Assembly (NCBI RefSeq): GCF_964355755.1
Contig: NC_092670.1
Location: 41,032,388 to 41,096,387 of the forward strand
Source of the DNA: Antedon mediterranea
Taxonomy: Eukaryota; Animalia; Echinodermata
Direction of reading: 5' to 3'
DNA length: 64,000 bases
Below, in pieces: positions 14,446 to 59,125 of the stretch; positions within the stretch are counted from its first letter, which is position 1; the number at the start of each line of letters is the position of its first letter. The notes beneath the pieces were generated by a model that was given only the letters and a program-made list of their open reading frames with translations, was not told where the DNA came from and did not search any database. Made by a program: the position numbers and the translations under genes.

Positions 14446-14540
14446 ATATTAAAATCTGTCAAATTGCTGTACAGTCAATTAATGCCGTTTCCACTACAGA
14501 CAGGGGATGTTGTCGCAAAGCTAAAAAATCGTCAGCATGT

Positions 14541-15522: not shown

Positions 15523-15736
15523 CTGCCATCCCGAGCGTTAGGCTTGTTTTCATGATATCGGTGTCCGATTGATCACCACTAGGCGTGGCGACTCCGACGA
15601 TTAAAATGAACAGAAACGTACATAAAAACTCAGCAATTAAACGTCTAAATAAATCTACAGTAAAAACGCAGGATTTTGCGGATTTAACACTCGAATTTGA
15701 CTCTGCATCATGGGTACTTCGCCTCCTACCCGCCAT
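15523..15736 (-). CDS. Aquaporin, coding exon 1 (N-terminus, TM1-TM2), followed by an 8.65-kb intron
   Basis: ATG at 15736; ...FRRLIAEFLCTFLFILIVG (MIP TM1 AEFxxT motif)...KTSLTLGMA G|gtaaac. The phase-1 donor matches the acceptor at 6871; the spliced product is 274 aa. Confidence 0.85.
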
Positions 15737-15839
15737 AGTCACTACCGACGACAAAACTTCGCTTTCCTTTTTGATTGAGTTGTTGTTGAGTAAGTAACTT
15801 ACTTTCAGCTTTCAGTAGTTGTACGAAACTGGTGTTTGT

Positions 15840-15930
15840 TTTCAAAAGTATAGAGGGCGGGCAGCAATTTGTTACTGTCCACAGAGATAAAAGTTTTATG
15901 ATTGATTGAAGTCGAACTATTCACGTCACA
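15840..15930 (-). promoter_or_regulatory. Candidate aquaporin proximal promoter elements (GC box GGGCGG at ~15855; CRE/ATF-like TGACGTGA at 15921-15928)
   Basis: Motif matches 100-200 bp upstream of the ATG, in the only ~320 bp of unique sequence before the tRNA array. Motif match only. Confidence 0.3.
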
Positions 15931-16736
15931 AACATCAAACAATTTTTTTTAAATATTTAAAAGTATAAAAAATTATAAATAATTGAAAAAAAAACTAAAT
16001 ATATAAAATGAATAAAAAAATAATAGTAATCAAAAGGATATTAGAAGCTAAATGCAATGATGTCACATCTCTATGATTCCTGGTTAAACATACTGTATGA
16101 ATAAAAAGACGAAAAAAAAAACAGTACTGGCCGATATGGGGCTCGAACCCATGACATTCGCGTTATTAGCACGACGCTCTGCAAACTGAGATAACCGGCC
16201 GGTTGGATACATAGATGTCACATTTCTATGATTTCTGGTTAAACATACTGTATGACTAAAAAGACGACAAAAATACAGTACTGGCCAATATGGGGTTCGA
16301 ACCCATGACATTCGCGTTATTAGCACGACGTTTTGCCGACTGAGCTAACCGGTCGGTTGGATGTCACATTTCTATGATTCCTGGTTAAACATACTGTATG
16401 ACTAAAAAGACGACAAAGGTACAGTACTGGCCGATATGGGGCTCGAACCCATGACATTCGCGTTATTAGCACGACGCTCCGCCGACTGAGCTAACCGGCC
16501 GGTTGGATACATAGATGTCACATTTCTATGATTCCTGGTTAAACATACTGTATGACTAAAAAGACGACAAAAGTACAGTACTGGCCGATATGGGGCTCGA
16601 ACCCATGAGATTCGCGTTATTAGCACGACGCTCTGCCGACTGAGCTAACCGGCCGGTTGGATACATAGATGTCACATTTCTATGATTACTGGTTAAACAT
16701 ACTGTATGACTAAAAAGACGAAAAAAAGTACAGTAC

Positions 16737-16809
16737 TGGCCGATATGGGGCTCGAACCCATGACATTCGCGTTATTAGCACGACGCTCTGCCGACTGAGC
16801 TAACCGGCC
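16737..16809 (-). tRNA. tRNA-Ile(AAT), representative consensus copy
   Basis: Intact 73-nt cloverleaf, anticodon AAT, discriminator A, no intron, oligo-T terminator downstream. Confidence 0.95.
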
Positions 16810-17659
16810 GGTTGGATACATAGATGTCACATTTCTATGATTCCTGGTTAAACATACTGTATGACTAAAAAGATGACAAAAATACTGGCCAAAATGGGTT
16901 TCGAACCCATGATATACGCGTTATTAGAACGACATTTTGCCGACTGAGCTAACCGGTCGGTTGGATACATAGATGTCACATTTCTATGATTCCTGGTTAA
17001 ACATACTGTATGACTAAAAAGACGAAAAAAAATACAGTATTGGCCGATACGGGGCTCGAACCCATGACATTCGCATTATTAGCACGACGCTCTGCCGACT
17101 GAGCTAACCGGCCGGTTGGATACATAGATGTCACATTTCTATGATTCATGGTTAAACATACTGTATGACTAAAAAGACGAAAAAAATACAGTACTGGCCG
17201 ATATGGGGCTCGAACCCATGACATTCGCGTTATTAGCACGACGCTCTGCCGACTGAAATAACCGGCCGGTTGGATACATAGATGTCACATTTCTATGAGT
17301 CCTGGTTACACATACTGTAGGCCTATGACTAAAAAGAAATTACAGTACTGGCCGATATGGGGCTTGAACCCATGACATTCGCGTTATTAGCACGACGCTC
17401 TGCCGACTGAAATAACCGGCCGGTTGGATACTAGATGTCACATTTCTATGATTTCTGGTTAAACGTAGTGTATGACTAAAAAGACGAAAAAAAGTACAGT
17501 ACTGGCCGATATGGGGCTCGAACCCATGACATTCGCGTTATTAGCACAACGATCTGCCGCCTGAGAGGGCTAACCGGCCGGTTGGATATATAGGTTTCAC
17601 ATTTCTATGATTCCTAGTCAAACATACTGTATGACTAAAGACGAAAAAAAATACAGTAC

Positions 17660-17732
17660 TGGCCGATATGGGGCTCGAACCCATGACATTCGCGTAATAA
17701 GCATGACGATCTGCCGACTGAACTGACCGGCC
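17660..17732 (-). pseudogene. Variant tRNA-Ile copy with anticodon loop CT-TAT-TA and D-arm changes
   Basis: The plus strand reads taataag instead of ttattag, with further substitutions in the D arm and anticodon stem. Confidence 0.7.
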
Positions 17733-20700
17733 GGTTGGATACATAGATATCACGTTTCTATGATTCCTGGTTAAACATACTGTATGACTAAAAAGACGAC
17801 AAAAGTATAATACTGGCCGATATGGGGCTCGAACCCATGACATTCGCGTTATTAGCACGACGCTCTGCCGACTGAGCTAACCGGCCGGTTGGATACATAG
17901 ATGTCACATTTCTATGATTCCTGGTTAAACATACTGTATGACTAAAAAGACGACAAAAGTACAGCACTGGCCGATATGGGGCTCGAACCCATGACATTCG
18001 CGTTATTAGCACGACGCTCTGCCGACTGAGCAAACCGGCCGGTTGGATACATAGATGTCACATTTCTATGATTCCTGGTTAAACATACTGTATGACTAAA
18101 AAGACGACAAAAATACAGTACTGGCCAATATGGGGTTCGAACCCATGACATTCGCGTTATTAGCACGACGTTTTGCCGACTGAGCTAACCGGTCGGTTGG
18201 ATACATAGATGTCACATTTCTATGATTCCTGGTTAAACATACTGTATGACTAAAAAGACGAAAAAAAATACAGTACTGGCCGATACGGGGCTCGAACCCA
18301 TGACATTCGCATTATTAGCACGACGCTCTGCCGACTGAGCTAACCGGCCGGTTGGATACATAGATGTCACATTTCTATGATTCATGGTTAAACATACTGT
18401 ATGACTAAAAAGACGACAAAAGTATAGTACTAGCCGATATGGGGCTCGAACCCATGACATTCGCGTTATTAGCACGACGCTCTGCCGACTGAGCTAACAG
18501 GCCGGTTGGATACATAGATGTCACATTTCTATGATTCCTTGTTAAACATACTGTATGACTAAAAAGACGAAACACAATACAGTACTGGCCGATATGGGGC
18601 TCGAACCCATGACATTCGCGTTATTAGCACGACGCTCTGGCGACTGAAATAACCGGTCGGTTTGATACATATGTCACATTTCTATGATTACTGGTTAAAA
18701 ATACTGTATGACTAAAAAGACGACAAAAATACAGTACTGGCCGATATGGGGCTCGAACCCATGACATTCGCGTTATTAGCACGACGCTCTGCCGACTGAG
18801 CTAACCAGCCGGTTGGATACATATATGTCACATTTATATGATTCCTGGTTAAACATACTGTATGACTAAAAAGACGAAAAAAAATACAGTACTGGCCGAT
18901 ATGGGGCTCGAACCCATGACATTCGCGTTATTAGCACGACGCTCTGCCGACTGAAATAACCTGCCGGTTGGATACATAGATGTCACATTTCTATGATTCC
19001 TGGTTAAACATACTGTATGACTAAAAAGACGACAAAAATACAGTATTGGCCGATATGGGGCTCGAACCCATGACATTCGCGTTATTAGCACGACGCTCTG
19101 GCGACTGAAATAACCGGTCGGTTGGATACATAGATGTCACGTTTCTATGATTCCTGGTTAAACATACTGTATGACTAAAAAGACGACAAAAGTACAGTAC
19201 TGGCCGATATGGGGCTCGAACCCATGACATTCGCGTTATTAGCACGACGCTCTGCCGACTGAGCTAACCGGCCGATTGGATACATAGATGTCACGTTTCT
19301 ATGATTCCTGGTTAAACATACTGTATGACTAAAAAGACGACAAAAGTACAGTACTAGCCGATATGGGGGCTCGAACCCATGACTTCGCGTTATTAGCACG
19401 ACGCTCTGCCGACTGAGCTAACCGGCCGGTTGGATACATAGATGTCACATTTCTATGATTCCTGGTTAAACATACTGTATGACTAAAAAGACGACAAAAA
19501 TACATTACTGGCCGATATGGGGCTCGAACCCATGACATTCGCGTTATTAGCACGACGATCTGCCGACTGAGCTAACCGGTCGGTTGGATACATATGTCAC
19601 ATTTCTGATTACTGGTTAAAAATACTGTATGACTAAAAAGACGACAAAAATACAGTACTGGCCGATATGGGGCTCGAACCCATGACATTCGCGTTATTAG
19701 CACGACGCTCTGCCGACTGAGATAACCCGCCGGTTGGATACTAGAAGTCACATTTCTATGATTTCTGGTTAAAGGTACTGTATGACTAAAAAGACGACAA
19801 AAATACAGTACTGGCCGATATGGGGCTCGAACCCATGACATTCGCGTTATTAGCACGACGCTCTGCCGACTGAAATAACCTGCCGGTTGGATACATAGAT
19901 GTCACATTTCTATGATTCCTGGTTAAACATACTGTATGACTAAAAAGACGACAAAAATACAGTATTGGCCGATATGGGGCTCGAACCCATGACATTCGCG
20001 TTATTAGCACGACGCTCTGCCGACTGAGCTAACCGGCCGGTTGGATACATAGATGTCACATTTCTATGATTCCTGGTTAAACATACTGTATGACTAAAAA
20101 ATACAGTATAGGCCGATATGGGGCTCGAACCCATGACATTCGCGTTATTAGCACGACGCTCTGCCGACTGAGCTAACCGGCCGATTGGATACATAGATGT
20201 CACGTTTCTATGATTCCTCGTTAAACATACTGTATGACTAAAAAGACGACAAAAGTACAGTACTAGCCGATATGGGGGCTCGAACCCATGACTTCGCGTT
20301 ATTAGCACGACGCTCTGCCGACTGAGCTAACCGGCCGGTTGGATACATAGATGTCACATTTCTATGATTCCTGGTTAAACATACTGTATGACTAAAAAGA
20401 CGACAAAAGTACAGCACTGGCCGATATGGGGCTCGAACCCATGACATTCGCGTTATTAGCACGACGATCTGCCGACTGAGCTAACCGGCCGGTTGGATAC
20501 ATAGATGTCACATTTCTATGATTCCTGGTTAAACATACTGTATGACTAAAAAGACGACAAAAGTACAGCACTGGCCGATATGGGGCTCGAACCCATGACA
20601 TTCGCGTTATTAGCACGACGCTCTGCCGACTGAGCAAACCGGCCGGTTGGATACATAGATGTCACATTTCTATGATTCCTGGTTAAACATACTGTATGAC

Positions 20701-23700
20701 TAAAAAGACGACAAAAATACAGTACTGGCCAATATGGGGTTCGAACCCATGACATTCGCGTTATTAGCACGACGTTTTGCCGACTGAGCTAACCGGTCGG
20801 TTGGATACATAGATGTCACATTTCTATGATTCCTGGTTAAACATACTGTATGACTAAAAAGACGAAAAAAAATACAGTACTGGCCGATACGGGGCTCGAA
20901 CCCATGACATTCGCATTATTAGCACGACGCTCTGCCGACTGAGCTAACCGGCCGGTTGGATACATAGATGTCACATTTCTATGATTCATGGTTAAACATA
21001 CTGTATGACTAAAAAGACGACAAAAGTATAGTACTAGCCGATATGGGGCTCGAACCCATGACATTCGCGTTATTAGCACGACGCTCTGCCGACTGAGCTA
21101 ACAGGCCGGTTGGATACATAGATGTCACATTTCTATGATTCCTTGTTAAACATACTGTATGACTAAAAAGACGAAACACAATACAGTACTGGCCGATATG
21201 GGGCTCGAACCCATGACATTCGCGTTATTAGCACGACGCTCTGGCGACTGAAATAACCGGTCGGTTTGATACATATGTCACATTTCTATGATTACTGGTT
21301 AAAAATACTGTATGACTAAAAAGACGACAAAAATACAGTACTGGCCGATATGGGGCTCGAACCCATGACATTCGCGTTATTAGCACGACGCTCTGCCGAC
21401 TGAGCTAACCAGCCGGTTGGATACATATATGTCACATTTATATGATTCCTGGTTAAACATACTGTATGACTAAAAAGACGAAAAAAAATACAGTACTGGC
21501 CGATATGGGGCTCGAACCCATGACATTCGCGTTATTAGCACGACGCTCTGCCGACTGAAATAACCTGCCGGTTGGATACATAGATGTCACATTTCTATGA
21601 TTCCTGGTTAAACATACTGTATGACTAAAAAGACGACAAAAATACAGTATTGGCCGATATGGGGCTCGAACCCATGACATTCGCGTTATTAGCACGACGC
21701 TCTGGCGACTGAAATAACCGGTCGGTTGGATACATAGATGTCACGTTTCTATGATTCCTGGTTAAACATACTGTATGACTAAAAAGACGACAAAAGTACA
21801 GTACTGGCCGATATGGGGCTCGAACCCATGACATTCGCGTTATTAGCACGACGCTCTGCCGACTGAGCTAACCGGCCGATTGGATACATAGATGTCACGT
21901 TTCTATGATTCCTGGTTAAACATACTGTATGACTAAAAAGACGACAAAAGTACAGTACTAGCCGATATGGGGGCTCGAACCCATGACTTCGCGTTATTAG
22001 CACGACGCTCTGCCGACTGAGCTAACCGGCCGGTTGGATACATAGATGTCACATTTCTATGATTCCTGGTTAAACATACTGTATGACTAAAAAGACGACA
22101 AAAATACATTACTGGCCGATATGGGGCTCGAACCCATGACATTCGCGTTATTAGCACGACGATCTGCCGACTGAGCTAACCGGTCGGTTGGATACATATG
22201 TCACATTTCTGATTACTGGTTAAAAATACTGTATGACTAAAAAGACGACAAAAATACAGTACTGGCCGATATGGGGCTCGAACCCATGACATTCGCGTTA
22301 TTAGCACGACGCTCTGCCGACTGAGATAACCCGCCGGTTGGATACTAGAAGTCACATTTCTATGATTTCTGGTTAAAGGTACTGTATGACTAAAAAGACG
22401 ACAAAAATACAGTACTGGCCGATATGGGGCTCGAACCCATGACATTCGCGTTATTAGCACGACGCTCTGCCGACTGAAATAACCTGCCGGTTGGATACAT
22501 AGATGTCACATTTCTATGATTCCTGGTTAAACATACTGTATGACTAAAAAGACGACAAAAATACAGTATTGGCCGATATGGGGCTCGAACCCATGACATT
22601 CGCGTTATTAGCACGACGCTCTGCCGACTGAGCTAACCGGCCGGTTGGATACATAGATGTCACATTTCTATGATTCCTGGTTAAACATACTGTATGACTA
22701 AAAAATACAGTATAGGCCGATATGGGGCTCGAACCCATGACATTCGCGTTATTAGCACGACGCTCTGCCGACTGAGCTAACCGGCCGATTGGATACATAG
22801 ATGTCACGTTTCTATGATTCCTCGTTAAACATACTGTATGACTAAAAAGACGACAAAAGTACAGTACTAGCCGATATGGGGGCTCGAACCCATGACTTCG
22901 CGTTATTAGCACGACGCTCTGCCGACTGAGCTAACCGGCCGGTTGGATACATAGATGTCACATTTCTATGATTCCTGGTTAAACATACTGTATGACTAAA
23001 AAGACGACAAAAATACATTACTGGCCGATATGGGGCTCGAACCCATGACATTCGCGTTATTAGCACGACGATCTGCCGACTGAGCTAACCGGTCGGTTGG
23101 ATACATAAGTCACATTTCTGATTACTGGTTAAAAATACTGTATGACTAAAAAGACGACAAAAATACAGTACTGGCCGATATGGGGCTCGAACCCATGACA
23201 TTCGCGTTATTAGCACGACGCTCTGCCGACTGAGATAACCCGCCGGTTGGATACTAGAAGTCACATTTCTATGATTTCTGGTTAAAGGTACTGTATGACT
23301 AAAAAGACGACAAAAATACAGTACTGGCCGATATGGGGCTCGAACCCATGACATTCGCGTTATTAGCACGACGCTCTGCCGACTGAAATAACCTGCCGGT
23401 TGGATACATAGATGTCACATTTCTATGATTCCTGGTTAAACATACTGTATGACTAAAAAGACGACAAAAATACAGTATTGGCCGATATGGGGCTCGAACC
23501 CATGACATTCGCGTTATTAGCACGACGCTCTGCCGACTGAGCTAACCGGCCGGTTGGATACATAGATGTCACATTTCTATGATTCCTGGTTAAACATACT
23601 GTATGAATAAAAAGACGAAAAAAAATACAGTACTGGCCGATATGGGGCTCGAACCCATGACATTCGCGTTATTAGCACGACGCTCTGCCGACTGAGCTAA

Positions 23701-26700
23701 CCGACCGGCCGGTTGGATACTAGATGTCACATTTCTATGATTCCTGGTTAAACATACTGTATGACTAAAAAGACGAAAAAAAATACAGTACTGGCCGATA
23801 CGGGGCTCGAACCCATGACATTCGCATTATTAGCACGACGCTCTGCCGACTGAGCTAACCGGCCGGTTGGATACATAGATGTCACATTTCTATGATTCAT
23901 GGTTAAACATACTGTATGACTAAAAAGACGACAAAAGTATAGTACTAGCCGATATGGGGCTCGAACCCATGACATTCGCGTTATTAGCACGACGCTCTGC
24001 CGACTGAGCTAACCGGCCGGTTGGATACATAGATGTCACATTTCTATTATTCCAGGTTAAACATACTGTATGACTAAAAAGACGACAAAAATACAGTACT
24101 GGCCGATATGGGGCTCGAACCCATGACATTCGCGTTATTAGCACGACGCTCTGCCGACTGAGCTAACAGGCCGGTTGGATACATAGATGTCACATTTCTA
24201 TGATTCTTGGTTAAACATACTGTATGACTAAAAAGACGAAACAAAATACAGTACTGGCCGATATGGGGCTCGAACCCATGACATTCGCGTTATTAGCACG
24301 ACGCTCTGGCGACTGAAATAACCGGTCGGTTTGATACATATGTCACATTTCTATGATTACTGGTTAAAAATACTGTATGACTAAAAAGACGACAAAAATA
24401 CAGTACTGGCCGATATGGGGCTCGAACCCATGACATTCGCGTTATTAGCACGACGCTCTGCCGACTGAGCTAACCGGCCGGTTGTATACATATATGTCAC
24501 ATTTATATGATTCCTGGTTAAACATACTGTATGACTAAAAAGACGAAAAAAAATACAGTACTGGCCGATATGGGGCTCAAACCCATGACATTCGCGTTAT
24601 TAGCACGACGCTCTGCCGACTGAAATAACCTGCCGGTTGGATACATAGATGTCACATTTCTATGATTCCTGGTTAAACATACTGTATGACTAAAAAGGCG
24701 ACAAAAGTATAGTACTGGCCGATATGGGGCTCGAACCCATGACATTCGCGTTATTAGCACGACGCTCTGCCGACTGAGCTAACCGGCCGATTGGATACAT
24801 AGATGTCACGTTTCTATGATTCCTGGTTAAACATACTGTATGACTAAAAAGACGACAAAAGTACAGTACTAGCCGATATGGGGGCTCGAACCCATGACTT
24901 CGCGTTATTAGCACGACGCTCTGCCGACTGAGCTAACCGGCCGGTTGGATACATAGATGTCACATTTCTATGATTCCTGGTTAAACATACTGTATGACTA
25001 AAAAGACGACAAAAATACATTACTGGCCGATATGGGGCTCGAACCCATGACATTCGCGTTATTAGCACGACGATCTGCCGACTGAGCTAACCGGTCGGTT
25101 GGATACATATGTCACATTTCTGATTACTGGTTAAAAATACTGTATGACTAAAAAGACGACAAAAATACAGTACTGGCCGATATGGGGCTCGAACCCATGA
25201 CATTCGCGTTATTAGCACGACGCTCTGCCGACTGAAATAACCTGCCGGTTGGATACTAGAAGTCACATTTCTATGATTTCTGGTTAAAGGTACTGTATGA
25301 CTAAAAAGACGACAAAAATACAGTATTGGCCGATATGGGGCTCGAACCCATGACATTCGCGTTATTAGCACGACGCTCTGCCGACTGAGCTAACCGGCCG
25401 GTTGGATACATAGATGTCACATTTCTATGATTCCTGGTTAAACATACTGTATGAATAAAAAGACGAAAAAAAATACAGTACTGGCCGATATGGGGCTCGA
25501 ACCCATGACATTCGCGTTATTAGCACGACGCTCTGCCGACTGAGCTAACCGGCCGGTTGGATACTAGATGTCACATTTCTATGATTCCTGGTTAAACATA
25601 CTGTATGACTAAAAAGACGACAAAAATACAGTACTGGCCGATATGGGGCTCGAACCCATGACATTCGCGTTATTAGCACGACGCTCTGCCGACTGAGCTA
25701 ACCGGCCGGTTGGATACATAGATGTCACATTTCTATTATTCCTGGTTAAACATACTGTATGACTAAAAAGACGACAAAAATACATTACTGGCCGATATGG
25801 GGCTCGAACCCATGACATTCGCGTTATTAGCACGACGCTCTGCCGACTGAGCTGACCGGCCTGACCGGCCGGTGGATACTAGAGGTCACATGTCTATGAT
25901 TTCTGGTTAAACGTACTATGACTAAAAAGACAGTACTGGCCGATATGGGCCTCGAACCCATGACATTCGCGTTATTAGCACGACGATCTGCCGACTGAGC
26001 TAACCGGTCGGTTGGATACATATGTCACATTTCTATGATTACTGGTTAAAAATACTGTATGACTAAAAAGACGACAAAAATACAGTACTGGCCGATATGG
26101 GGCTCGAACCCATGACATTCGCGTTATTAGCACGACGCTCTGCCGACTGAGCTAACCGGCCGGTTGGATACAGATATGTCACATTTCTATGATTCCTGGT
26201 TAAACATACTGTATGACTAAAAAGACGACAAAAATACAGTACTGGCCGATATGGGGCTCGAACCCATAACATTCGCGTTATTAGCACGACGCTCTGCCGA
26301 CTGAGCTAACCGGCCGGTTGGATACATAGATGTCACATTTCTATGATTCCTGGTTAAACATACTGTATGACTAAAAAGACGAAAAAAATACAGTACTGGC
26401 CGATATGGCGCTCGAACCCATGACATTCGCGTTATTAGCACGACGCTCTGGCGACTGAAATAACCTGCCGGTTGGATACATAGATGTCACATTTCTATGA
26501 TTCCTGGTTAAACATACTGTATGACTAAAAAGACGACAAAAGTACAGTACTGGCCGATATGGGGCTCGAACCCATGACATTCGCGTTATTAGCACGACGC
26601 TCTGCCGACTGAGCTAACCGGCCGGATAGATGTCACATTTCTATTATTCCTGGTTAAACACACTGTATGACTAAAAAGACGACAAAAATACAGTACTGGC

Positions 26701-27005
26701 CGATATGGGGCTCGAACCCATGACATTCGCGTTATTAGCACGACGCTCTGCCGACTGAGCTAACAGGCCGGTTGGATACATAGATTTCACATTTCTATTA
26801 TTCTTGGTTAAACATACTGTATGACTAAAAAGACGAAAAAAAATAAAGTACTGGCCGATATGGGGCTCGAACCCATGACATTCGCGTTATTAGCACGACG
26901 CTCTGCCGACTGAAATAACCGGCCGGTTGGATACTAGATGTCACATTTCTATGATTTCTGGTTAAACATACTGTATGACCAAAAAGACGAAAAAAAGTAC
27001 AGTTC

Positions 27006-27060
27006 TGGCCGATATGGGGCTCGAACCCATGACATTCGCGTTATTAGCACGACGCTCTCC
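27006..27060 (-). pseudogene. tRNA-Ile copy with an 18-nt deletion near the 5' end (same class at ~29733, ~32312, ~35945, ~37763)
   Basis: gacgctct|ccggttgg: gccgactgagctaaccgg is missing, which removes most of the 5' acceptor strand and the A box; the B box is intact. Confidence 0.85.
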
Positions 27061-30000
27061 GGTTGGATATATAGGTTTCATATTTCTATGATTCCTAGTA
27101 AAACATACTGTATGACTAAAGACAAAAAAAAATACAGTACTGGCCGATATGGGGCTCGAACCCATGACATTCGCGTTATTGGCACGACGCTCTGCCGACT
27201 GAAATAACCGGCCGGTTGGATACTAGATGTCAGATTTCTATGATTTCTGGTTAAACATACTGTATGACTAAAAAGACGACAAAAATACAGTACTGGCCGA
27301 TATGGGGCTCGAACCCATGACATTCGCGTTATTAGCACGACGCTCTGCCGACTGAGCTAACCGGCCGGTTGGATACATAGATGTCACATTTCTATGATTC
27401 CTGGTTAAACATACTGTATGACTAAAAAATACAGTATAGGCCATAATGGGGCTCGAACCCATGACATTCGCGTTATTAGCACGACGCTCTGTCGACTGAG
27501 CTAACCGGCCGGCTGGATACATAGATGTCACATTTCTATGATTCATGGTTAAACATACTGTATGACTAAAAAGACGAAAAAAAATACAGCACTGGCCGAT
27601 ATGGGGGCTCGAACCCATGACATTCGCTTTATTAGCACAACGCTCTGCCGACTGAGCTAACCGGACGGTTGGATACATAGATGTCACATTTCTATGATTC
27701 CTAGTTAAACATACTGTATGACTAAAAAGACGAAAAAAAATACAGCACTGGCCGATATGGGGCTCGAACCCATGACATTCGCGTTATTAGCACGACGCTC
27801 TGCCGACTGAGCTAACCGGCCGGTTGGATACATACATGTCACATTTCTATGATTCCTAGTTAAACATACTGTATGACTAAAAAGACGAAAAAAGTATAGT
27901 ACTGGCCGATATGGGGCTCGAACCCATGACATTCGCGTTATTAGCACGACGCTCTGCCGACTGAGCTAACCGGCCGGTTGGATACATAGATGTCACATTT
28001 CTATGATTCATGATTAAAAATACTGTATGACTAAAAAGACGACAAAAATACAGTACTGGCCGATATGGGGCTCGAACCCATGACATTCGCGTTATTAGCA
28101 CGACGCTCTGCCGACTGAGCTAACCGGCCGGTTGGATACATAGATGTCACATTTCTATGATTCCTGGTTAAACATACTGTATGACTAAAAAGACGACAAA
28201 AATACAGTACTGGCCGATATGGGGCTCGAACCCATGACATTCGCGTTATTAGCACGACGCTCTGCCGACTGAGCTAACCGGCCGATTGGATACATAGATG
28301 TCACATTTCTATTATTCCTGGTTAAACATACTGTATGACTAAAAAGACGACAGAAATACATTACTGGCCGATATGGGGCTCGAACCCATGACATTCGCGT
28401 TATTAGCACGACCCTCTGCCGACTGAGCTGACCGGCCGGTTGGATACTAAAGGTCACATGTCTATGATTTCTGGTTAAACGTACTATGACTAAAAATACA
28501 GTACTGGCCGCTGTGGGGCTCGAACCCATGACATTCGCGTTATTAGCACGACGCTCTGCCGACTGAGCTAACCGGCCGGTTGGTTACATAGATGTCACAT
28601 TTCTATGATTCCTGGTTAAACATACTGTATGACTAAAAAGACGACAAAAATACAGTACTTGCCATTATGGGGCTCGAACCCATGACATTCGCGTTATTAG
28701 CACGACGCTCTGCCGACTGAGCTAACCGGCCGGTTGGATACATAGATGTCACATTTCTATTATTCCTGGTTAAACATACTGTATGACTAAAAAGACGACA
28801 GAAATACATTACTGGCCGATATGGGGCTCGAACCCATGACATTCGCGTTATTAGCACGACGCTCTGCCGACTGAGCTGACCGGCCGGTTGGATACTAAAG
28901 GTCACATGTCTATGATTTCTGGTTAAACGTACTATGACTAAAAATACAGTACTGGCCGCTGTGGGGCTCGAACCCATGACATTCGCGTTATTAGCACGAC
29001 GCTCTGCCGACTGAGCTAACCGGCCGGTTGGTTACATAGATGTCACATTTCTATGATTCCTGGTTAAACATATACTGTATGACTAAAAAGACGACAAAAA
29101 TACAGTACTGGCCGATATGGGGCTCGAACCCATGACATTCGCGTTATTAGCACGACGCTCTGCCGACTGAGCTAACCGGCCGGTTGGATACATAGATGTC
29201 ACATTTCTATGATTCCTGGTTAAACATACTGTATGACTAAAAAGACGAAAAAAAATACAGTACTGGCCGATATGGGGCTCGAACCCATGACATTCGCGTT
29301 ATTAGCACGACGCTCTGCCGACTGAAATAACCTGCCGGTTGGATACATAGATGTCACATTTCTATGATTCCTGGTTAAACATACTGTATGACTAAAAAGA
29401 CGACAAATGTATAGTACTGGCCGATATGGGACTCGAACCCATGACATTCGCGTTATTAGCACGACGCTCTGCCGACTGAGCTAACCGGCCGGTTGGATAC
29501 ATAGATTTCACATTTCTATTATTCCTGGTTATACATACTGTATGACTAAAAAGACGAAAAAAAATACAGTACTGGCCGATATGGGGCTCGAACCGATGAC
29601 ATTCGCGTTATTAGCACGACGCTCTGCCGACTGAAACAACCGGCCGGTTGGATACTAGATGTCACATTTCTATGATTTCTGGTTAAACGTAGGCCTACTG
29701 TATGACTAAAAAGACGAAAAAAAGTACAGTTCAGGCCGATATGGGGCTCGAACCCATGACATTCGCGTTATTAGCACGACGCTCTCCGGTTGGATATATA
29801 GGTTTCACATTTCTATGATTCCTAGTAAAACATACTGTATGACTAAAGACGAAAAAAAATACAGTACTGGCCGATATGGGGCTCGAACCCATGACATTCG
29901 CGTTATTAGCACGACGCTCTGCCGACTGAGCTAACCGGCCGGTTGGATACATAGATGTCACATTTCTATGATTCCTGGTTAAACATACTGTATGAATAAA

Positions 30001-33000
30001 AAGACGACAGAAATACAGCACTGGCCGATATGGGGCTCGAACCCATGACATTCGCGTTATTAGCACGACGCTCTGCCGACTGAGCTAACCGGCCGATTGG
30101 ATACATAGATGTCACGTTTCTATGATTCCTGGTTAAACATACTGTATGACTAAAAAGACGACAAAAGTACAGTACTAGCCGATATGGGGGCTCGAACCCA
30201 TGACTTCGCGTTATTAGCACGACGCTCTGCCGACTGAGCTAACCGGCCGGTTGGATACATAGATGTCACATTTCTATGATTCCTGGTTAAACATACTGTA
30301 TGACTAAAAAGACGACAAAAATACATTACTGGCCGATATGGGGCTCGAACCCATGACATTCGCGTTATTAGCACGACGATCTGCCGACTGAGCTAACCGG
30401 TCGGTTGGATACATATGTCACATTTCTGATTACTGGTTAAAAATACTGTATGACTAAAAAGACGACAAAAATACAGTACTGGCCGATATGGGGCTCGAAC
30501 CCATGACATTCGCGTTATTAGCACGACGCTCTGCCGACTGAAATAACCTGCCGGTTGGATACTAGAAGTCACATTTCTATGATTTCTGGTTAAAGGTACT
30601 GTATGACTAAAAAGACGACAAAAATACAGTATTGGCCGATATGGGGCTCGAACCCATGACATTCGCGTTATTAGCACGACGCTCTGCCGACTGAGCTAAC
30701 CGGCCGGTTGGATACATAGATGTCACATTTCTATGATTCCTGGTTAAACATACTGTATGAATAAAAAGACGAAAAAAAATACAGTACTGGCCGATATGGG
30801 GCTCGAACCCATGACATTCGCGTTATTAGCACGACGCTCTGCCGACTGAGCTAACCGGCCGGTTGGATACTAGATGTCACATTTCTATGATTCCTGGTTA
30901 AACATACTGTATGACTAAAAAGACGACAAAAATACAGTACTGGCCGATATGGGGCTCGAACCCATGACATTCGCGTTATTAGCACGACGCTCTGCCGACT
31001 GAGCTAACCGGCCGGTTGGATACATAGATGTCACATTTCTATTATTCCTGGTTAAACATACTGTATGACTAAAAAGACGACAAAAATACATTACTGGCCG
31101 ATATGGGGCTCGAACCCATGACATTCGCGTTATTAGCACGACGCTCTGCCGACTGAGCTGACCGGCCTGACCGGCCGGTGGATACTAGAGGTCACATGTC
31201 TATGATTTCTGGTTAAACGTACTATGACTAAAAAGACAGTACTGGCCGATATGGGCCTCGAACCCATGACATTCGCGTTATTAGCACGACGATCTGCCGA
31301 CTGAGCTAACCGGTCGGTTGGATACATATGTCACATTTCTATGATTACTGGTTAAAAATACTGTATGACTAAAAAGACGACAAAAATACAGTACTGGCCG
31401 ATATGGGGCTCGAACCCATGACATTCGCGTTATTAGCACGACGCTCTGCCGACTGAGCTAACCGGCCGGTTGGATACAGATATGTCACATTTCTATGATT
31501 CCTGGTTAAACATACTGTATGACTAAAAAGACGACAAAAATACAGTACTGGCCGATATGGGGCTCGAACCCATAACATTCGCGTTATTAGCACGACGCTC
31601 TGCCGACTGAGCTAACCGGCCGGTTGGATACATAGATGTCACATTTCTATGATTCCTGGTTAAACATACTGTATGACTAAAAAGACGAAAAAAATACAGT
31701 ACTGGCCGATATGGCGCTCGAACCCATGACATTCGCGTTATTAGCACGACGCTCTGGCGACTGAAATAACCTGCCGGTTGGATACATAGATGTCACATTT
31801 CTATGATTCCTGGTTAAACATACTGTATGACTAAAAAGACGACAAAAGTACAGTACTGGCCGATATGGGGCTCGAACCCATGACATTCGCGTTATTAGCA
31901 CGACGCTCTGCCGACTGAGCTAACCGGCCGGATAGATGTCACATTTCTATTATTCCTGGTTAAACATACTGTATGACTAAAAAGACGACAAAAATACAGT
32001 ACTGGCCGATATGGGGCTCGAACCCATGACATTCGCGTTATTAGCACGACGCTCTGCCGACTGAGCTAACAGGCCGGTTGGATACATAGATTTCACATTT
32101 CTATTATTCTTGGTTAAACATACTGTATGACTAAAAAGACGAAAAAAAATAAAGTACTGGCCGATATGGGGCTCGAACCCATGACATTCGCGTTATTAGC
32201 ACGACGCTCTGCCGACTGAAATAACCGGCCGGTTGGATACTAGATGTCACATTTCTATGATTTCTGGTTAAACATACTGTATGACCAAAAAGACGAAAAA
32301 AAGTACAGTTCTGGCCGATATGGGGCTCGAACCCATGACATTCGCGTTATTAGCACGACGCTCTCCGGTTGGATATATAGGTTTCATATTTCTATGATTC
32401 CTAGTAAAACATACTGTATGACTAAAGACAAAAAAAAATACAGTACTGGCCGATATGGGGCTCGAACCCATGACATTCGCGTTATTGGCACGACGCTCTG
32501 CCGACTGAAATAACCGGCCGGTTGGATACTAGATGTCAGATTTCTATGATTTCTGGTTAAACATACTGTATGACTAAAAAGACGACAAAAATACAGTACT
32601 GGCCGATATGGGGCTCGAACCCATGACATTCGCGTTATTAGCACGACGCTCTGCCGACTGAGCTAACCGGCCGGTTGGATACATAGATGTCACATTTCTA
32701 TGATTCCTGGTTAAACATACTGTATGACTAAAAAATACAGTATAGGCCATAATGGGGCTCGAACCCATGACATTCGCGTTATTAGCACGACGCTCTGTCG
32801 ACTGAGCTAACCGGCCGGCTGGATACATAGATGTCACATTTCTATGATTCATGGTTAAACATACTGTATGACTAAAAAGACGAAAAAAAATACAGCACTG
32901 GCCGATATGGGGGCTCGAACCCATGACATTCGCTTTATTAGCACAACGCTCTGCCGACTGAGCTAACCGGACGGTTGGATACATAGATGTCACATTTCTA

Positions 33001-36000
33001 TGATTCCTAGTTAAACATACTGTATGACTAAAAAGACGAAAAAAAATACAGCACTGGCCGATATGGGGCTCGAACCCATGACATTCGCGTTATTAGCACG
33101 ACGCTCTGCCGACTGAGCTAACCGGCCGGTTGGATACATACATGTCACATTTCTATGATTCCTAGTTAAACATACTGTATGACTAAAAAGACGAAAAAAG
33201 TATAGTACTGGCCGATATGGGGCTCGAACCCATGACATTCGCGTTATTAGCACGACGCTCTGCCGACTGAGCTAACCGGCCGGTTGGATACATAGATGTC
33301 ACATTTCTATGATTCATGATTAAAAATACTGTATGACTAAAAAGACGACAAAAATACAGTACTGGCCGATATGGGGCTCGAACCCATGACATTCGCGTTA
33401 TTAGCACGACGCTCTGCCGACTGAGCTAACCGGCCGGTTGGATACATAGATGTCACATTTCTATGATTCCTGGTTAAACATACTGTATGACTAAAAAGAC
33501 GACAAAAATACAGTACTGGCCGATATGGGGCTCGAACCCATGACATTCGCGTTATTAGCACGACGCTCTGCCGACTGAGCTAACCGGCCGATTGGATACA
33601 TAGATGTCACATTTCTATTATTCCTGGTTAAACATACTGTATGACTAAAAAGACGACAGAAATACATTACTGGCCGATATGGGGCTCGAACCCATGACAT
33701 TCGCGTTATTAGCACGACCCTCTGCCGACTGAGCTGACCGGCCGGTTGGATACTAAAGGTCACATGTCTATGATTTCTGGTTAAACGTACTATGACTAAA
33801 AATACAGTACTGGCCGCTGTGGGGCTCGAACCCATGACATTCGCGTTATTAGCACGACGCTCTGCCGACTGAGCTAACCGGCCGGTTGGTTACATAGATG
33901 TCACATTTCTATGATTCCTGGTTAAACATACTGTATGACTAAAAAGACGACAAAAATACAGTACTTGCCATTATGGGGCTCGAACCCATGACATTCGCGT
34001 TATTAGCACGACGCTCTGCCGACTGAGCTAACCGGCCGGTTGGATACATAGATGTCACATTTCTATTATTCCTGGTTAAACATACTGTATGACTAAAAAG
34101 ACGACAGAAATACATTACTGGCCGATATGGGGCTCGAACCCATGACATTCGCGTTATTAGCACGACGCTCTGCCGACTGAGCTGACCGGCCGGTTGGATA
34201 CTAAAGGTCACATGTCTATGATTTCTGGTTAAACGTACTATGACTAAAAATACAGTACTGGCCGCTGTGGGGCTCGAACCCATGACATTCGCGTTATTAG
34301 CACGACGCTCTGCCGACTGAGCTAACCGGCCGGTTGGTTACATAGATGTCACATTTCTATGATTCCTGGTTAAACATATACTGTATGACTAAAAAGACGA
34401 CAAAAATACAGTACTGGCCGATATGGGGCTCGAACCCATGACATTCGCGTTATTAGCACGACGCTCTGCCGACTGAGCTAACCGGCCGGTTGGATACATA
34501 GATGTCACATTTCTATGATTCCTGGTTAAACATACTGTATGACTAAAAAGACGAAAAAAAATACAGTACTGGCCGATATGGGGCTCGAACCCATGACATT
34601 CGCGTTATTAGCACGACGCTCTGCCGACTGAAATAACCTGCCGGTTGGATACATAGATGTCACATTTCTATGATTCCTGGTTAAACATACTGTATGACTA
34701 AAAAGACGACAAATGTATAGTACTGGCCGATATGGGACTCGAACCCATGACATTCGCGTTATTAGCACGACGCTCTGCCGACTGAGCTAACCGGCCGGTT
34801 GGATACATAGATTTCACATTTCTATTATTCCTGGTTATACATACTGTATGACTAAAAAGACGAAAAAAAATACAGTACTGGCCGATATGGGGCTCGAACC
34901 GATGACATTCGCGTTATTAGCACGACGCTCTGCCGACTGAGCTGACCGGCCGGTTGGATACTAAAGGTCACATGTCTATGATTTCTGGTTAAACGTACTA
35001 TGACTAAAAATACAGTACTGGCCGCTGTGGGGCTCGAACCCATGACATTCGCGTTATTAGCACGACGCTCTGCCGACTGAGCTAACCGGCCGGTTGGTTA
35101 CATAGATGTCACATTTCTATGATTCCTGGTTAAACATATACTGTATGACTAAAAAGACGACAAAAATACAGTACTGGCCGATATGGGGCTCGAACCCATG
35201 ACATTCGCGTTATTAGCACGACGCTCTGCCGACTGAGCTAACCGGCCGGTTGGATACATAGATGTCACATTTCTATGATTCCTGGTTAAACATACTGTAT
35301 GACTAAAAAGACGAAAAAAAATACAGTACTGGCCGATATGGGGCTCGAACCCATGACATTCGCGTTATTAGCACGACGCTCTGCCGACTGAAATAACCTG
35401 CCGGTTGGATACATAGATGTCACATTTCTATGATTCCTGGTTAAACATACTGTATGACTAAAAAGACGACAAATGTATAGTACTGGCCGATATGGGACTC
35501 GAACCCATGACATTCGCGTTATTAGCACGACGCTCTGCCGACTGAGCTAACTGGCCGGATAGATGTCACATTTCTATTATTCCTGCTTAAACATACTGTA
35601 TGACTAAAAAGACGACAAAAATACAGTACCGGCCGATATGGGGCTCGAACCCATGACATTCGCGTTATTAGCACGACGCTCTGCCGACTGAGCTAACCGG
35701 CCGGTTGGATACATAGATTTCACATTTCTATTATTCCTGGTTATACATACTGTATGACTAAAAAGACGAAAAAAAATACAGTACTGGCCGATATGGGGCT
35801 CGAACCGATGACATTCGCGTTATTCGCACGACGCTCTGCCGACTGAAACAACCGGCCGGTTGGATACTAGATGTCACATTTCTATGATTTCTGGTTAAAC
35901 GTAGGCCTACTGTATGACTAAAAAGACGAAAAAAAGTACAGTTCTGGCCGATATGGGGCTCGAACCCATGACATTCGCGTTATTAGCACGACGCTCTCCG

Positions 36001-39000
36001 GTTGGATATATAGGTTTCACATTTCTATGATTCCTAGTAAAACATACTGTATGACTAAAGACGAAAAAAAATACAGTACTGGCCGATATGGGGCTCGAAC
36101 CCATGACATTCGCGTTATTAGCACGACGCTCTGCCGACTGAAATAACCGGCCGGTTGGATACTAGATGTCACATTTCTATGATTTCTGGTTAAACATACT
36201 GTATGACTAAAAAGACGACAAAAATACAGTACTGGCCGATATGGGGCTCGAACCCATGACATTCGCGTTATTAGCACGACGCTCTGCCGACTGAGCTAAC
36301 CGGCCGGTTGGATACATAGATGTCACATTTCTATGATTCCTGGTTAAACATACTGTATGACTAAAAAATACAGTATTGGCCGATATGGGGCTCGAACCCA
36401 TGACATTCGCGTTATTAGCACGACGCTCTGCCGACTGAGCTAACCGGCCGGTTGGTTACATAGATGTCACATTTCTATGATTCCTGGTTAAACATACTGT
36501 ATGACTAAAAAGACGACAAAAATACAGCACTGGCCAATATGGGGCTCGAACCCATGACATTCGTGTTATTAGCACGACGCTCTGCCGACTGAGCTAACCG
36601 GCCGGTTGGATACATAGATGTCACATTTCTATGATTCCTGGTTAAACATACTGTATGACTAAAAAGACGAAAAAAAAATACAGTACTGGCCGATATGGGG
36701 CTCGAACCCATGACATTCGCGTTATTAGCACGACGCTCTGCCGACTGAAATAACCTGCTGGTTGGATACATAGATGTCACATTTCTATGATTCCTGGTTA
36801 AACATACTGTATGACTAAAAAAACGACAAAAATACAGTACTGGCCGATATGGGGCTCGAACCCATGACATTCGCGTTATTAGCACGACGCTCTGCCGACT
36901 GAGCTAACCGGCCGGTTGGATACATAGATGTCACATTTCTATGATTCCTGGTTAAACATACTGTATGACTAAAAAGACGAAAAAAATACAGTACTGGCCA
37001 ATATGGGGTTCGAACCCATGACATTCGCGTTATTAACACGACGTTTTGCCGACTGAGCTAACCGGTCGGTTGGATACATAGATGTCACATTTCTATGATT
37101 CCTGGTTAAACATACTGTATGACTAAAAAGACGACAAAGGTACAGTACTGGCCGATATGGGGCTCGAACCCATGACATTCGCGTTATTAGCACGACGCTC
37201 TGCCGACTGAGCTAACCGGCCGGTTGGATACATAGATGTCACATTTCTATGATTCCTGGTAAACATACTGTATGACTAAAAAGACGACAAATGTACAGTA
37301 CTGGCCGATATGGGGCTCAAACCCATGACATTCGCGTTATTAGCACGACGCTCTGCCGACTGAGCTAACCGGCCGGATAGATGTCACATTTCTATTATTC
37401 CTTGTTAAACATACTGTATGACTAAAAAGACGACAAAAATACAGTACCGGCCGATATGGGGCTCGAACCCATGACATTCGCGTTATTAGCACGACGCTCT
37501 GCCGACTGAGCTAACCGGCCGGTTGGATACATAGATTTCACATTTCTATTATTCCTGGTTATACATACTGTATGACTAAAAAGACGAAAAAAAATACAGT
37601 ACTGGCCGATATGGGGCTCGAACCGATGACATTCGCGTTATTAGCACGACGCTCTGCCGACTTAAACAACCGGCCGGTTGGATACTAGATTTCACATTTC
37701 TATGATTTCTGGTTAAACGTAGGCCTACTGTATGACTAAAAAGACGAAAAAAAGTACAGTTCTGGCCGATATGGGGCTCGAACCCATGACATTCGCGTTA
37801 TTAGCACGACGCTCTCCGGTTGGATATATAGGTTTCACATTTCTATGATTCCTAGTAAAACATACTGTATGACTAAAGACGAAAAAAAATACAGTACTGG
37901 CCGATATGGGGCTCGAACCCATGACATTCGCGTTATTAGCACGACGCTCTGCCGACTGAAATAACCGGCCGGTTGGATACTAGATGTCACATTTCTATGA
38001 TTTCTGGTTAAACATACTGTATGACTAAAAAGACGACAAAAATACAGTACTGGCCGATATGGGGCTCGAACCCATGACATTCGCGTTATTAGCACGACGC
38101 TCTGCCGACTGAGCTAACCGGCCGGTTGGATACATAGATGTCACATTTCTATGATTCCTGGTTAAACATACTGTATGACTAAAAAATACAGTATTGGCCG
38201 ATATGGGGCTCGAACCCATGACATTCTCGTTATTAGCACGACGCTCTGCCGACTGAGCTAACCTGCCGGTTGGATACATAGATGTCACATTTCTATTATT
38301 CCAGGTTAAACATACTGTATGACTAAAAAGACGACAAAAATACAGTATTGGCCGATATGGGGCTCGAACCCATGACATTCGCGTTATTAGCACGACGCTC
38401 TGCCGACTGAGCTAACCGGTCGGTTGGATACATAGATGTCACATTTCTATGATTCCTGGTTAAAAATACTGTATGACTAAAAAGACGACAAAAATACAGT
38501 ATTGGCCGATATGGGGCTCGAACCCATGACATTCGCGTTATTAGCACGACGCTCTGGCGACTGAAATAACCGGTCGGTTGGATACATAGATGTCACGTTT
38601 CTATGATTCCTGGTTAAACATACTGTATGACTAAAAAGACGACAAAAGTACAGTACTGGCCGATATGGGGCTCGAACCCATGACATTCGCGTTATTAGCA
38701 CGACGCTCTGCCGACTGAGCTAACCGGCCGGTTGGATACATAGATGTCACGTTTCTATGATTCCTGGTTAAACATACTGTATGACTAAAAAAGACGACAA
38801 AAGTATAGTACTGGCCGATATGGGGCTCGAACCCATGACATTCGCGTTATTAGCACGACGCTCTGCCGACTGATCTAACCGGCCGGTTGGATACTAGATG
38901 TCACATTTCTATGATTCCTAGTTAAACATACTGTATGACTAAAAAAACGAAAAAAAAATACAGTATTGGCCGATATGGGGCTCGAACCCATGACATTCGC

Positions 39001-39274
39001 GTTATTAGCACGACGCTCTGCCGACTGAGCTAACCGGCCGGTTGGATACATAGATGTCACATTTCTATGATTTCTGGTTAAACGTACTGTATGACTAAAA
39101 AGACGACAAAAGTACAGTACTGGCCGATATGGGGCTCGAACCCATGACATTCGCGTTATTAGCACGACGCTCTGCCGACTGAGCTAACCGGCCGGTTGGA
39201 TACATAGATGTCACATTTCTATGATTACTGGTTAAACATACTGTATGACTAAAAAGACGACAAAAATACAGTAT

Positions 39275-39347
39275 TGGCCGATATGGGGCTCGAACCCATG
39301 ACATTCGCGTTATTAGCACGACGCTCTGCCGACTGAGCTAACCGGCC
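39275..39347 (-). tRNA. tRNA-Ile(AAT), most upstream intact copy of the array
   Basis: Consensus 73-nt sequence; a degenerate 3' fragment follows at ~39429-39447. Confidence 0.93.
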
Positions 39348-40338
39348 GGTTGGATACGTTGATGTCACGTTTCTATGATTCCTGGTTAAACATACTGAAT
39401 GACTAAAAAGACGACAAAAACACATTTCTGGTCGATATGTGGCGAACTTCTATCAGTAAATCTATTTCACAACCATGTAATATAAAGATAGTAATAATAT
39501 ATTTGTAGCGTGACTAACAGACAGATAGATAGACAGCCAACAGTATAATTGTTTTCTTTTATTATGGGTCACTTTTGCAAACATTAAGAAATATCAAGTA
39601 ACCAATCAAACAAGTAGAAAAAAGAATGTAAATTTGAGCGAACTGGCTTTTTATATTATTTATCCAAATGGATAAATTGAAAAACATGATTGAAACATTT
39701 CATAAAATATAAAATATAGAAAACTAAATCTATACAAAGTTTGGAAATCAGCAGAAAAAAGATAAGATAAGATTACTACTATTAAAAGCCAAGAAACACT
39801 GGTCCCACATTGAATGCGTTGCAATGCGGGGATTATTTGTGGCAATTTGCGGAAAGCTGCAGAGTAGGTAACAATGTTAGTCGTGTGTTCACATAAAATG
39901 TAAACAGTTAGTTACATGTATGCGTGGTGATCATACCAATGTAACACATAGCAAGTGGAGCAATGAGGAAGAAAATAAATGTGGTAACAATATGAATTTG
40001 GTTATTTCTGAATAAAATTCTGATGGTACAAGTTACCATGACAGTTTTTTTATACAGCTTTTTGAAAAGAATGACAAGCTAAAATTAAACAAACTGACCT
40101 CTAGAGGGCCAAATACATGGTCAAGAGTCCGGTTTGAGAATAGTTACATGTAATGATAAATTTCTACAGTTATTTTCAGATGCTTCTTATAATTTCAGAT
40201 TATTGTTTCCATGACAACATTAATATGTTTTATAAACACTCTAATCATAGCTTAATCTATGGTGGTTGTCGTGGTATCTATTCCAGAGGGTTGCTTAATA
40301 TTTCAATCGTTGGTTTAAATAATTCAGCACCATTTGAT

Positions 40339-40548
40339 TTAAATATACTTAAAACACTTTTGTTTATCGTGAGGTATTCTTGTTTTAAAAAGCACGGAGT
40401 CAACACGAAATTGCGTGTTTAGCAGAGGCGTGTATCCAAACACTTTTGTAAAAAACTTGATGCATGTGTGTCTCTCATTAAAATGAGACTCGTCCAATGA
40501 GAGGGCATCTGGACATCCTGGACAACGGAACGTCCACCTTGAAGTGAC
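40339..40548 (-). CDS. EXTL3: Exostosin-like 3, last coding exon
   Basis: cacag|GTC ACT TCA AGG TGG... reads [69 protein letters not shown], the diagnostic EXTL3/botv C-terminus; 210 nt. Confidence 0.95.
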
Positions 40549-40735
40549 CTGTGAAAAACAAATGGAAACAAATATTATGATAAAAACGTTTTACTTATAG
40601 CAACTCAGTTGCAAGCTCTTCTCAGTGATAAAAAATTGCAAAAGATGAACTTGGTTAATGAAAAAAAGATGGATGATAATTACGGAAATACTTGACAAAG
40701 ATCATAACGCTGTGCATGGAAAATTCTATACACCA

Positions 40736-40985: not shown

Positions 40986-41121
40986 CATGGATCTACTATA
41001 ATATTAGCTCTATGCAATAACCAGGCAATATAAATCATCCTAATTATAACATTTGTTAATTAATGTACATGAAAAAAAACACTTTCAGGAGTTTAATACA
41101 ATATGGAAACAGGAGTGGAAT

Positions 41122-59121: not shown

Positions 59122-59125
59122 TTAT

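What the first reader, a model, noticed from the sequence alone, without database searches (positions are those of the whole stretch)
16059..39447. 23-kb satellite-like array of ~150 tRNA-Ile(AAT) genes, each a self-contained Pol III unit
Seen: one isoacceptor is repeated head-to-tail at ~154 bp. Most copies keep a perfect cloverleaf, A/B boxes, a CAA just upstream of +1 and two oligo-T terminators, and many CpGs per unit persist in an otherwise CpG-poor window. Known: tandem tRNA arrays exist (Entamoeba, Arabidopsis Ser-Tyr-Tyr and Pro clusters, Xenopus oocyte-type cluster), but animal Ile-AAT genes usually number in the tens. Inference: this is a dosage-amplified, possibly stage-specific (e.g. 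oocyte) tRNA locus, a structural chromatin element, or a tRNA gene becoming a satellite DNA.
Basis: partly seen in the sequence, partly recalled or inferred. Interest (0 to 1): 0.85.

Follow-up and report, generated by a model that had tools for sequence, protein, structure and literature searches.

The report
Feather-star isoleucine tRNA gene array
A feather star carries 153 head-to-tail copies of one isoleucine tRNA gene, only about 40% of them still intact, squeezed between two ordinary genes and shared with a close relative; it is likely a working bulk source of that tRNA that recombination keeps renewing, a layout already described in hydroids and zebrafish.

Summary
The array is real: 153 units of about 154 bp on the minus strand, 152 with anticodon AAT. 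It lies between EXTL3 (100% identical to the Antedon mediterranea protein) and an aquaporin. 'Most copies perfect' is wrong: 69 of 153 keep all stem pairs, 57 are strictly intact, and 53 have a damaged A box. Contig depth is about 99 times the flank against 103 expected, so this is no gross assembly expansion, though two near-perfect blocks (49 units) remain unverified. A related organism with flanks 8% diverged has the same right edge and an identical tRNA at about 54-66 times flank depth. CpG transitions are not enriched. Variants in the anticodon-to-T-arm core stay rare (post hoc). Best reading: an expressed multicopy tRNA locus turned over by unequal exchange and selected collectively. Transcription was not shown. 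Such arrays are described in Hydractinia, zebrafish and Arabidopsis, and this scan noted three in other genomes. New member of a known kind; interest 0.3.

The parts
16059..39447 (-). Tandem array of 153 tRNA-Ile units (73-nt gene + about 81-nt spacer), plus a degenerate terminal part-unit
39275..39347 (-). First complete unit's gene; identical to the array's majority tRNA-Ile(AAT) (43 identical copies; Rfam RF00005 63.4 bits); an identical 73-nt contig exists in organism A and organism B
39348..39447 (-). Right edge: leader, spacer, oligo-T trailer and a decayed remnant of a tRNA 3' end; the same edge is joined to unique flank in organism B
   Evidence: X7 contig 39393-40698; X6 contig 39393-39927
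16128..16200 (-). Last (left-edge) tRNA copy, with a broken D-stem pair
17864..23012 (.). Near-perfect higher-order duplication, offset 2604 bp (17 units): 2545 bp exact match, 17864-20408 vs 20468-23012
24714..34940 (.). Near-perfect higher-order duplication, offset 5306 bp (35 units): exact runs of 1947 and 2973 bp split by one mismatch, 24714-29634 vs 30020-34940
15523..15754 (-). First coding exon of the downstream aquaporin (MIP) gene, start codon near 15736; spliced to exon 2 (near 6871) in run X5; array edge is about 305 bp upstream of the contig's 5' end
   Evidence: exons 2 and 3 hit PF00230; exon 1 alone has no Pfam hit
40339..40590 (-). Last coding exon of EXTL3 (GT64 domain); stop codon about 890 bp from the array; a contig of run X5 that may be its 3' UTR ends at 39645

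Best explanation
This is a tandem array of 153 isoleucine (AAT) tRNA genes in a feather star that likely serves as a bulk source of this tRNA, likely grown and reshuffled by unequal exchange and likely selected as a whole rather than copy by copy. Shown: each unit is a 73-nt gene, an oligo-T trailer and a short leader; 57 units are strictly intact; blocks of 5 to 35 units recur; the same lesions occur on different unit backgrounds; a related organism has the same edge and the same tRNA. Inferred: intact units bind TFIIIC at their A and B boxes, place TFIIIB and Pol III on the roughly 55 bp between the previous terminator and +1, and are transcribed one gene at a time; ADAT would convert A34 to inosine so that the tRNA reads AUU and AUC (established tRNA biology, recalled). 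Inferred: with so many copies a single null costs little, so A-box and D-stem lesions drift to high frequency, while selection on total output keeps the majority sequence fixed.
For: Copy number is real to first order: tRNA contig depth 2676.7 vs flank 27.0-27.4 in X1 = 98-99x, against 102.7 expected from the window; haplotype bubbles at depth 18.4 and 14.1 show that 27 is two-haplotype depth. This array would thus hold about 70-100% of exact copies of this sequence. Organism B: 0 differences in 73 nt at 54-66x flank depth, while the right flank differs at 104 of 1306 sites (0.92^73 = 0.002) and at least one spacer site differs in all laid B contigs. Variants at tRNA positions 26-65 stay rare: 0.009 per site per copy vs 0.029 in the spacer; none of 26 alleles exceeds 5 copies; in neutral array simulations 0-2 of 300 runs per setting were as low for that window. 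No CpG hypermutability: 12 of 20 CpG sites vs 23 of 50 other C/G sites carry a transition allele. Higher-order duplications with offsets of 760, 909, 1818, 2604 and 5306 bp.
Against: No transcript from the array was shown. Over the whole tRNA the number of independent changes is not significantly below the spacer (ratio 0.91, p = 0.41 by alleles; 0.78, p = 0.18 by parsimony). The 26-65 window was chosen after seeing the data; allowing any 40-nt window, 1 to 51 of 300 neutral runs per setting reach it. 96 of 153 copies fail the strict test, spread evenly along the array. Spacer contig depths (43x, 38x) fit the array with its two near-perfect blocks collapsed (37, 40 expected) better than the full array (55, 62). 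Contig depth is a rough measure by the tool's own warning, and X1 may be the assembly's own sample. Arabidopsis clusters with good-looking promoter elements are silent (PMC7544208, abstract).
Confidence: 0.6

Rival explanations
1. A maternal-type array: transcribed mainly in oocytes to stock the yolky egg and non-feeding larva, and quiet in somatic cells, where dispersed genes supply the tRNA.
For: In zebrafish, maternal-type tRNA genes appear to sit in large clusters and somatic-type genes singly (bioRxiv 10.1101/869651, passages); Xenopus oocyte tRNA genes are clustered (PMC1635290, passages). No CpG-transition excess suggests an unmethylated germline state. Dispersed related genes at single-copy depth exist.
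Against: No stage data at all. The dispersed relatives seen differ at 6-9 of about 60 sites and have different acceptor ends, so they may not be Ile-AAT genes; if the array holds most copies of the gene, somatic cells would need it.
Confidence: 0.2
2. A silent tRNA-derived satellite that fluctuates neutrally, like the Arabidopsis Ser-Tyr-Tyr cluster in most tissues.
For: 63% of copies fail the strict test; an A-box lesion at position 10 is in 34 copies; whole-tRNA change counts do not differ significantly from the spacer; the 154-bp period is close to one nucleosome (recalled). Arabidopsis arrays are described as drifting and silenced (PMC2886086, PMC7544208, abstracts).
Against: The majority tRNA is identical across an 8% flank divergence while the spacer differs; core variants stay rare; no methylation-type decay of CpG.
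Confidence: 0.12
3. A TFIIIC-binding boundary that shields the aquaporin promoter from the EXTL3 gene body, so the B box matters more than the tRNA.
For: The array fills an interval that is otherwise about 500 bp between the two genes' transcript contigs; the B box is kept in 146 of 153 copies and the A box in 100; the edge is conserved in organism B. Boundary roles are proposed for a human tRNA repeat and for TFIIIC-only sites (PMC4041453, PMC3395662; search listings only).
Against: The anticodon arm is as conserved as the B box, which a pure TFIIIC role does not need; a boundary does not need 150 copies.
Confidence: 0.05
4. The array is largely an assembly expansion of a few copies.
For: Two blocks are almost exact copies (2545 bp exact; one mismatch in 4921 bp), and spacer depth fits their collapse to about 104 units.
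Against: 94 distinct unit types among 152; depth 38-99x flank in X1 and 54-66x in organism B. At most about a third of the units could be false or haplotype-specific.
Confidence: 0.03

Closest known systems
Hydractinia tRNA tandem arrays (PMC11067881, passages read)
   Same: Animal, evenly spaced arrays of tens to hundreds of near-identical tRNA genes with similar spacers; function unclear there too.
   Different: [quoted passage not shown]
Arabidopsis chromosome 1 Ser-Tyr-Tyr array (PMC2886086 and PMC7544208, abstracts; PMC12308677, listing)
   Same: Head-to-tail tRNA units, unequal crossing-over, orthologous array in a sister species with concerted evolution.
   Different: Three genes per unit and 27 units; methylated and silent in most tissues. 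Here one gene per unit, 153 units, and no CpG-decay signature.
Zebrafish large tRNA clusters, maternal-type (bioRxiv 10.1101/869651, passages) and Nematostella clusters (PMC2888827, passages)
   Same: Large clusters (fifty or more members) and hundreds of copies per anticodon in an animal genome.
   Different: Those clusters are mostly of mixed isoacceptors; stage-specific expression is reported for zebrafish and untested here.
Human 1q23.3 tRNA variable-number tandem repeat (PMC4041453, search listing only)
   Same: Tandem tRNA-bearing units, proposed boundary role.
   Different: 7.3-kb unit, 9-43 copies, CTCF site; far less compact.

Membership tests
Eukaryotic tRNA-Ile(AAT) gene (Rfam RF00005, type 2 Pol III promoter) | Cloverleaf with 7/4/5/5 stems, AAT anticodon and invariant bases | tested here: met
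   Majority sequence pairs fully, 63.4 bits; met strictly by 57 of 153 copies
Eukaryotic tRNA-Ile(AAT) gene (Rfam RF00005, type 2 Pol III promoter) | Internal A and B boxes and a downstream oligo-T terminator | tested here: met
   Both boxes in 96 of 153; T>=4 run in 153 of 153
Eukaryotic tRNA-Ile(AAT) gene (Rfam RF00005, type 2 Pol III promoter) | Transcribed by Pol III and matured | not testable with these tools
   Only contigs of one spliced long-RNA-type run were available
Tandem tRNA gene array (Hydractinia / Arabidopsis type) | Evenly spaced, same-strand, near-identical genes with similar spacers, tens to hundreds of copies | tested here: met
   153 units, modal period 154, mean divergence from majority 2.7%
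Tandem tRNA gene array (Hydractinia / Arabidopsis type) | Turnover by unequal exchange (higher-order blocks) | tested here: met
   Nested block duplications at offsets 760 to 5306 bp; the mechanism itself is inferred
Tandem tRNA gene array (Hydractinia / Arabidopsis type) | Orthologous array in a relative with species-specific spacer (concerted evolution) | tested here: inconclusive
   Same right edge, identical tRNA, head-to-tail joint and one fixed spacer difference in organism B; its full spacer and array length were not seen
Maternal (oocyte-type) tRNA cluster | Expression restricted to oocytes or early embryos | not testable with these tools
   No staged small-RNA data
Methylation-silenced tRNA cluster (Arabidopsis type) | Heavy CpG methylation | tested here: inconclusive
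   Indirect only: no excess of CpG transitions (12 of 20 vs 23 of 50 sites); somatic methylation would leave no such trace
tRNA-derived SINE or satellite without coding capacity | Majority sequence no longer a functional tRNA, or tRNA head joined to an unrelated body and tail | tested here: not met
   Majority unit is a full canonical tRNA followed directly by terminators

The most novel reading that the evidence does not exclude
This feather star keeps most of its supply of one essential tRNA in a single nucleosome-sized satellite in which selection sorts lesions by type: copies silenced or destabilised at the 5' end (A box, D stem) are harmless and spread, while variants in the anticodon-to-T-arm core, which could still be made and disturb decoding, are held rare. 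The array would then be a natural readout of which tRNA mutations are toxic rather than merely null.
Probability: 0.2. Interest if true: 0.6.

Novelty: new member of a known kind. Interest (0 to 1): 0.3.

Why it matters
Tandem tRNA arrays in animals are described but their function is stated to be unclear (PMC11067881). This one is unusually compact (154-bp unit), resolved copy by copy, bounded by two single-copy genes and shared with a relative. That makes three questions testable at one locus: whether arrayed tRNA genes are transcribed, whether they are maternal, and how selection acts on redundant copies. I found no description of such an array in an echinoderm in three literature searches (listings only), but the arrangement itself is a known kind.

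Tried and rejected
No whole genome is held for this window, so arrays of other isoacceptors and other Ile-AAT loci could not be counted. Expression: no listed run is on record as RNA. X5 is spliced at the aquaporin exon 1/2 joint and holds tRNA and spacer contigs (depth 146 and 60-88), but the ratio resembles DNA and about 1.5x DNA carry-over would explain it: no verdict on transcription. Gaps in X5 cover at 39454-39644 and 15770-16019 prove nothing. Selection on the whole tRNA versus spacer by allele and parsimony counts: not significant. Strand asymmetry expected from transcription-associated mutation: none (C>T 18 vs G>A 17, G>T 11 vs C>A 14 alleles). My independent-sites estimate of the intact fraction (0.04 expected vs 0.28 seen) is inflated by a few high-frequency spacer alleles and was not used. 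A gradient of decay along the array: none (5-10 intact per 19 units). Look-alike windows in this scan: 0; no other tRNA array among the notes listed for this genome (8 of 44 and 3 of 3 matching notes shown, 77 windows noted in all). Hydractinia supplements: 0 hits for four terms in 8 held files, so array periods there could not be compared; tRNA counts for Anneissia are in supplements I did not open; bioRxiv supplements are closed. The left junction in organism B was not bridged by any listed contig. SINE origin rejected: the unit has no body or tail beyond the terminators.
Full report
Observation. Tandem Repeats Finder reports one array at 16059-39443 with period 154 and 153.5 copies. ARAGORN tRNA-Ile(aat) genes there and Rfam 145 tRNA matches, all on the minus strand. 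An anchor search finds 153 units, with 69 of 152 spacings at 154 bp and the rest at 135-160 bp. 152 read AAT and one TAT. The window has no N. This is far beyond chance.

Anatomy. Each unit is a 73-nt gene, a trailer with oligo-T runs starting about 9 and 20 nt after the gene, and a leader with CAA just upstream of +1. The majority gene, found unchanged at 39275-39347, forms all 21 stem pairs and scores 63.4 bits. The A box matches in 100, the B box in 146, CAA is present in 138, and two terminator runs in 120 (box and invariant definitions recalled). A lesion at position 10 is in 34 copies, mostly with one at position 11, and five units have lost much of the 5' end. Intact and broken copies are interleaved without a gradient.

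Context. The upstream gene's large exon is 100% identical to EXTL3 labelled Antedon mediterranea and 81% to Anneissia japonica, so the window is from a feather star. Downstream exons hit the aquaporin family PF00230. Both genes and all tRNAs are on the minus strand. In run X5 a contig joins aquaporin exon 1 (15523-15754) to letters that match the window at 6842-6871, so X5 holds spliced RNA. A contig that may be the EXTL3 3' UTR ends at 39645 (one study, weak hint). The array therefore fills a gap of otherwise about 500 bp.

Is the copy number real? In X1 (organism A) the exact tRNA contig has depth 2676.7 and the flanks 27.0 and 27.4; a heterozygous bubble has arms at 18.4 and 14.1. The ratio of 98-99 compares with 102.7 expected from 31-mer counts in the window. 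Two blocks are nearly exact duplicates (offset 2604: 2545 bp exact; offset 5306: one mismatch in 4921 bp). Removing their second copies leaves 104 units and lowers the expectation to 69. Spacer contigs at 43x and 38x fit that collapsed form (37, 40) better than the full one (55, 62). So the locus holds about 100-150 units per haploid genome. The two blocks may be very recent, haplotype-specific or false. The tool warns that contig depth is a rough figure, and X1 may be the assembly's own sample. I laid 4 of the 7 listed runs.

A relative has it. In organism B (X6, X7) contigs run from unique flank into the array's right edge at 39393. The flank differs at 104 of 1306 sites, yet the 73-nt tRNA contig has no difference and stands at 54-66 times flank depth. 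If the gene diverged like the flank, identity would have probability about 0.002. A head-to-tail joint appears in X6 (table 5c), and at 39360 none of the X6 depth carries organism A's majority base. The array, or at least its edge and a high-copy identical gene, predates the split. That B's high-copy genes are attached to this edge is inferred.

How it evolves. Nested block duplications (offsets 760, 909, 1818, 2604, 5306 bp) and the same lesions on different backgrounds point to unequal exchange and conversion (inference). Units differ from the majority by 2.7% on average; 94 of 152 are distinct. Counting independent changes, the tRNA is not significantly more constrained than the spacer (ratio 0.91, p = 0.41; 0.78, p = 0.18). 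But alleles at positions 26-65 never exceed 5 copies, whereas 25 of 57 spacer alleles and 10 of 25 alleles at positions 1-25 reach 5 or more. In neutral simulations with crossover and conversion, 0-2 of 300 runs per setting were as low in that window, and 1-51 of 300 when any 40-nt window was allowed (six settings). This is suggestive, not proven, because the window was chosen after seeing the data. CpG sites show no transition excess (12 of 20 vs 23 of 50 sites), which argues against long-term germline methylation; the high CpG ratio (1.31) mostly reflects the tRNA's own sequence.

Mechanism. Most likely (0.6) intact units are transcribed singly by Pol III from internal A and B boxes and supply tRNA-Ile(IAU), and redundancy lets nulls drift while collective selection fixes the majority sequence. 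Depth suggests the array holds 70-100% of exact copies of this gene. Related dispersed genes seen at single-copy depth differ at 6-9 of about 60 sites, and loose ends show at least one other locus with the same 5' end but another leader. In the one long exon counted, 29 of 50 Ile codons are ATT or ATC. Transcription is not shown: X5 holds array contigs, but DNA carry-over would explain them. Rivals are a maternal-only array (0.2), a silent satellite (0.12), a TFIIIC boundary (0.05) and a gross assembly artefact (0.03).

What is known. Hydractinia has tandem arrays of tens to hundreds of tRNA genes for all 20 amino acids, with spacers of hundreds to thousands of nt, and the authors also found tRNA arrays in Nematostella (PMC11067881, passages; its held supplements gave no hits). 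Clusters of fifty or more occur in Nematostella and teleosts (PMC2888827, passages). Zebrafish has up to 825 copies of one anticodon, with maternal-type genes apparently in large clusters (bioRxiv 10.1101/869651, passages; supplements closed). The Arabidopsis Ser-Tyr-Tyr array grew by unequal crossing-over, is shared with A. lyrata, and is silenced by methylation (PMC2886086, PMC7544208; abstracts). Three searches (listings only) showed no paper on an echinoderm tRNA array. Unreviewed notes from this scan record similar arrays in three other genomes (Thr, Lys, Ala) and a U1 snRNA array in this genome; I did not check them.

Verdict. A real, compact, partly decayed tandem tRNA-Ile(AAT) array conserved at its locus in two related organisms: a new member of a known kind. 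Its distinctive points are the 154-bp unit, the position hard against two single-copy genes, and a possible sorting of lesions by tRNA region. Interest 0.3.

Noticed in passing
contigs laid on window 39283-39345 and 16136-16178: Organisms A and B hold a dispersed family of related tRNA-like genes at about single-copy depth, with different acceptor ends and with 5' and 3' flanks shared among themselves; could be another isoacceptor family or a tRNA-headed repeat.
   Followed up: no
window 61247-63781: A second satellite: 17 copies of a 149-bp unit at 98% identity, with no tRNA or Rfam match.
   Followed up: no
window 17660-17732: The only unit with anticodon TAT; it also has two broken stem pairs and is probably a decayed copy.
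   Followed up: partly
window 15400-15950: CpG-rich stretch (observed/expected 1.13) over aquaporin exon 1 and its likely promoter, directly beside the array's left edge.
   Followed up: partly
window 12652-13044: 130-aa reading frame in an aquaporin intron that looks like the C-terminal end of a LINE reverse transcriptase (by eye; not searched).
   Followed up: no
window 1-16000 and 40700-60000: Many intronic minisatellites, for example 61 bp x 9 at 13525, 45 bp x 12 at 42299, 43 bp x 13 at 56001 and 22 bp x 37 at 59126; this genome forms tandem repeats readily.
   Followed up: no
window 14762-14918 and 40030-40125: Short dispersed repeats in the flanks, seen as local depth peaks with many loose ends in all or some runs.
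   Followed up: no
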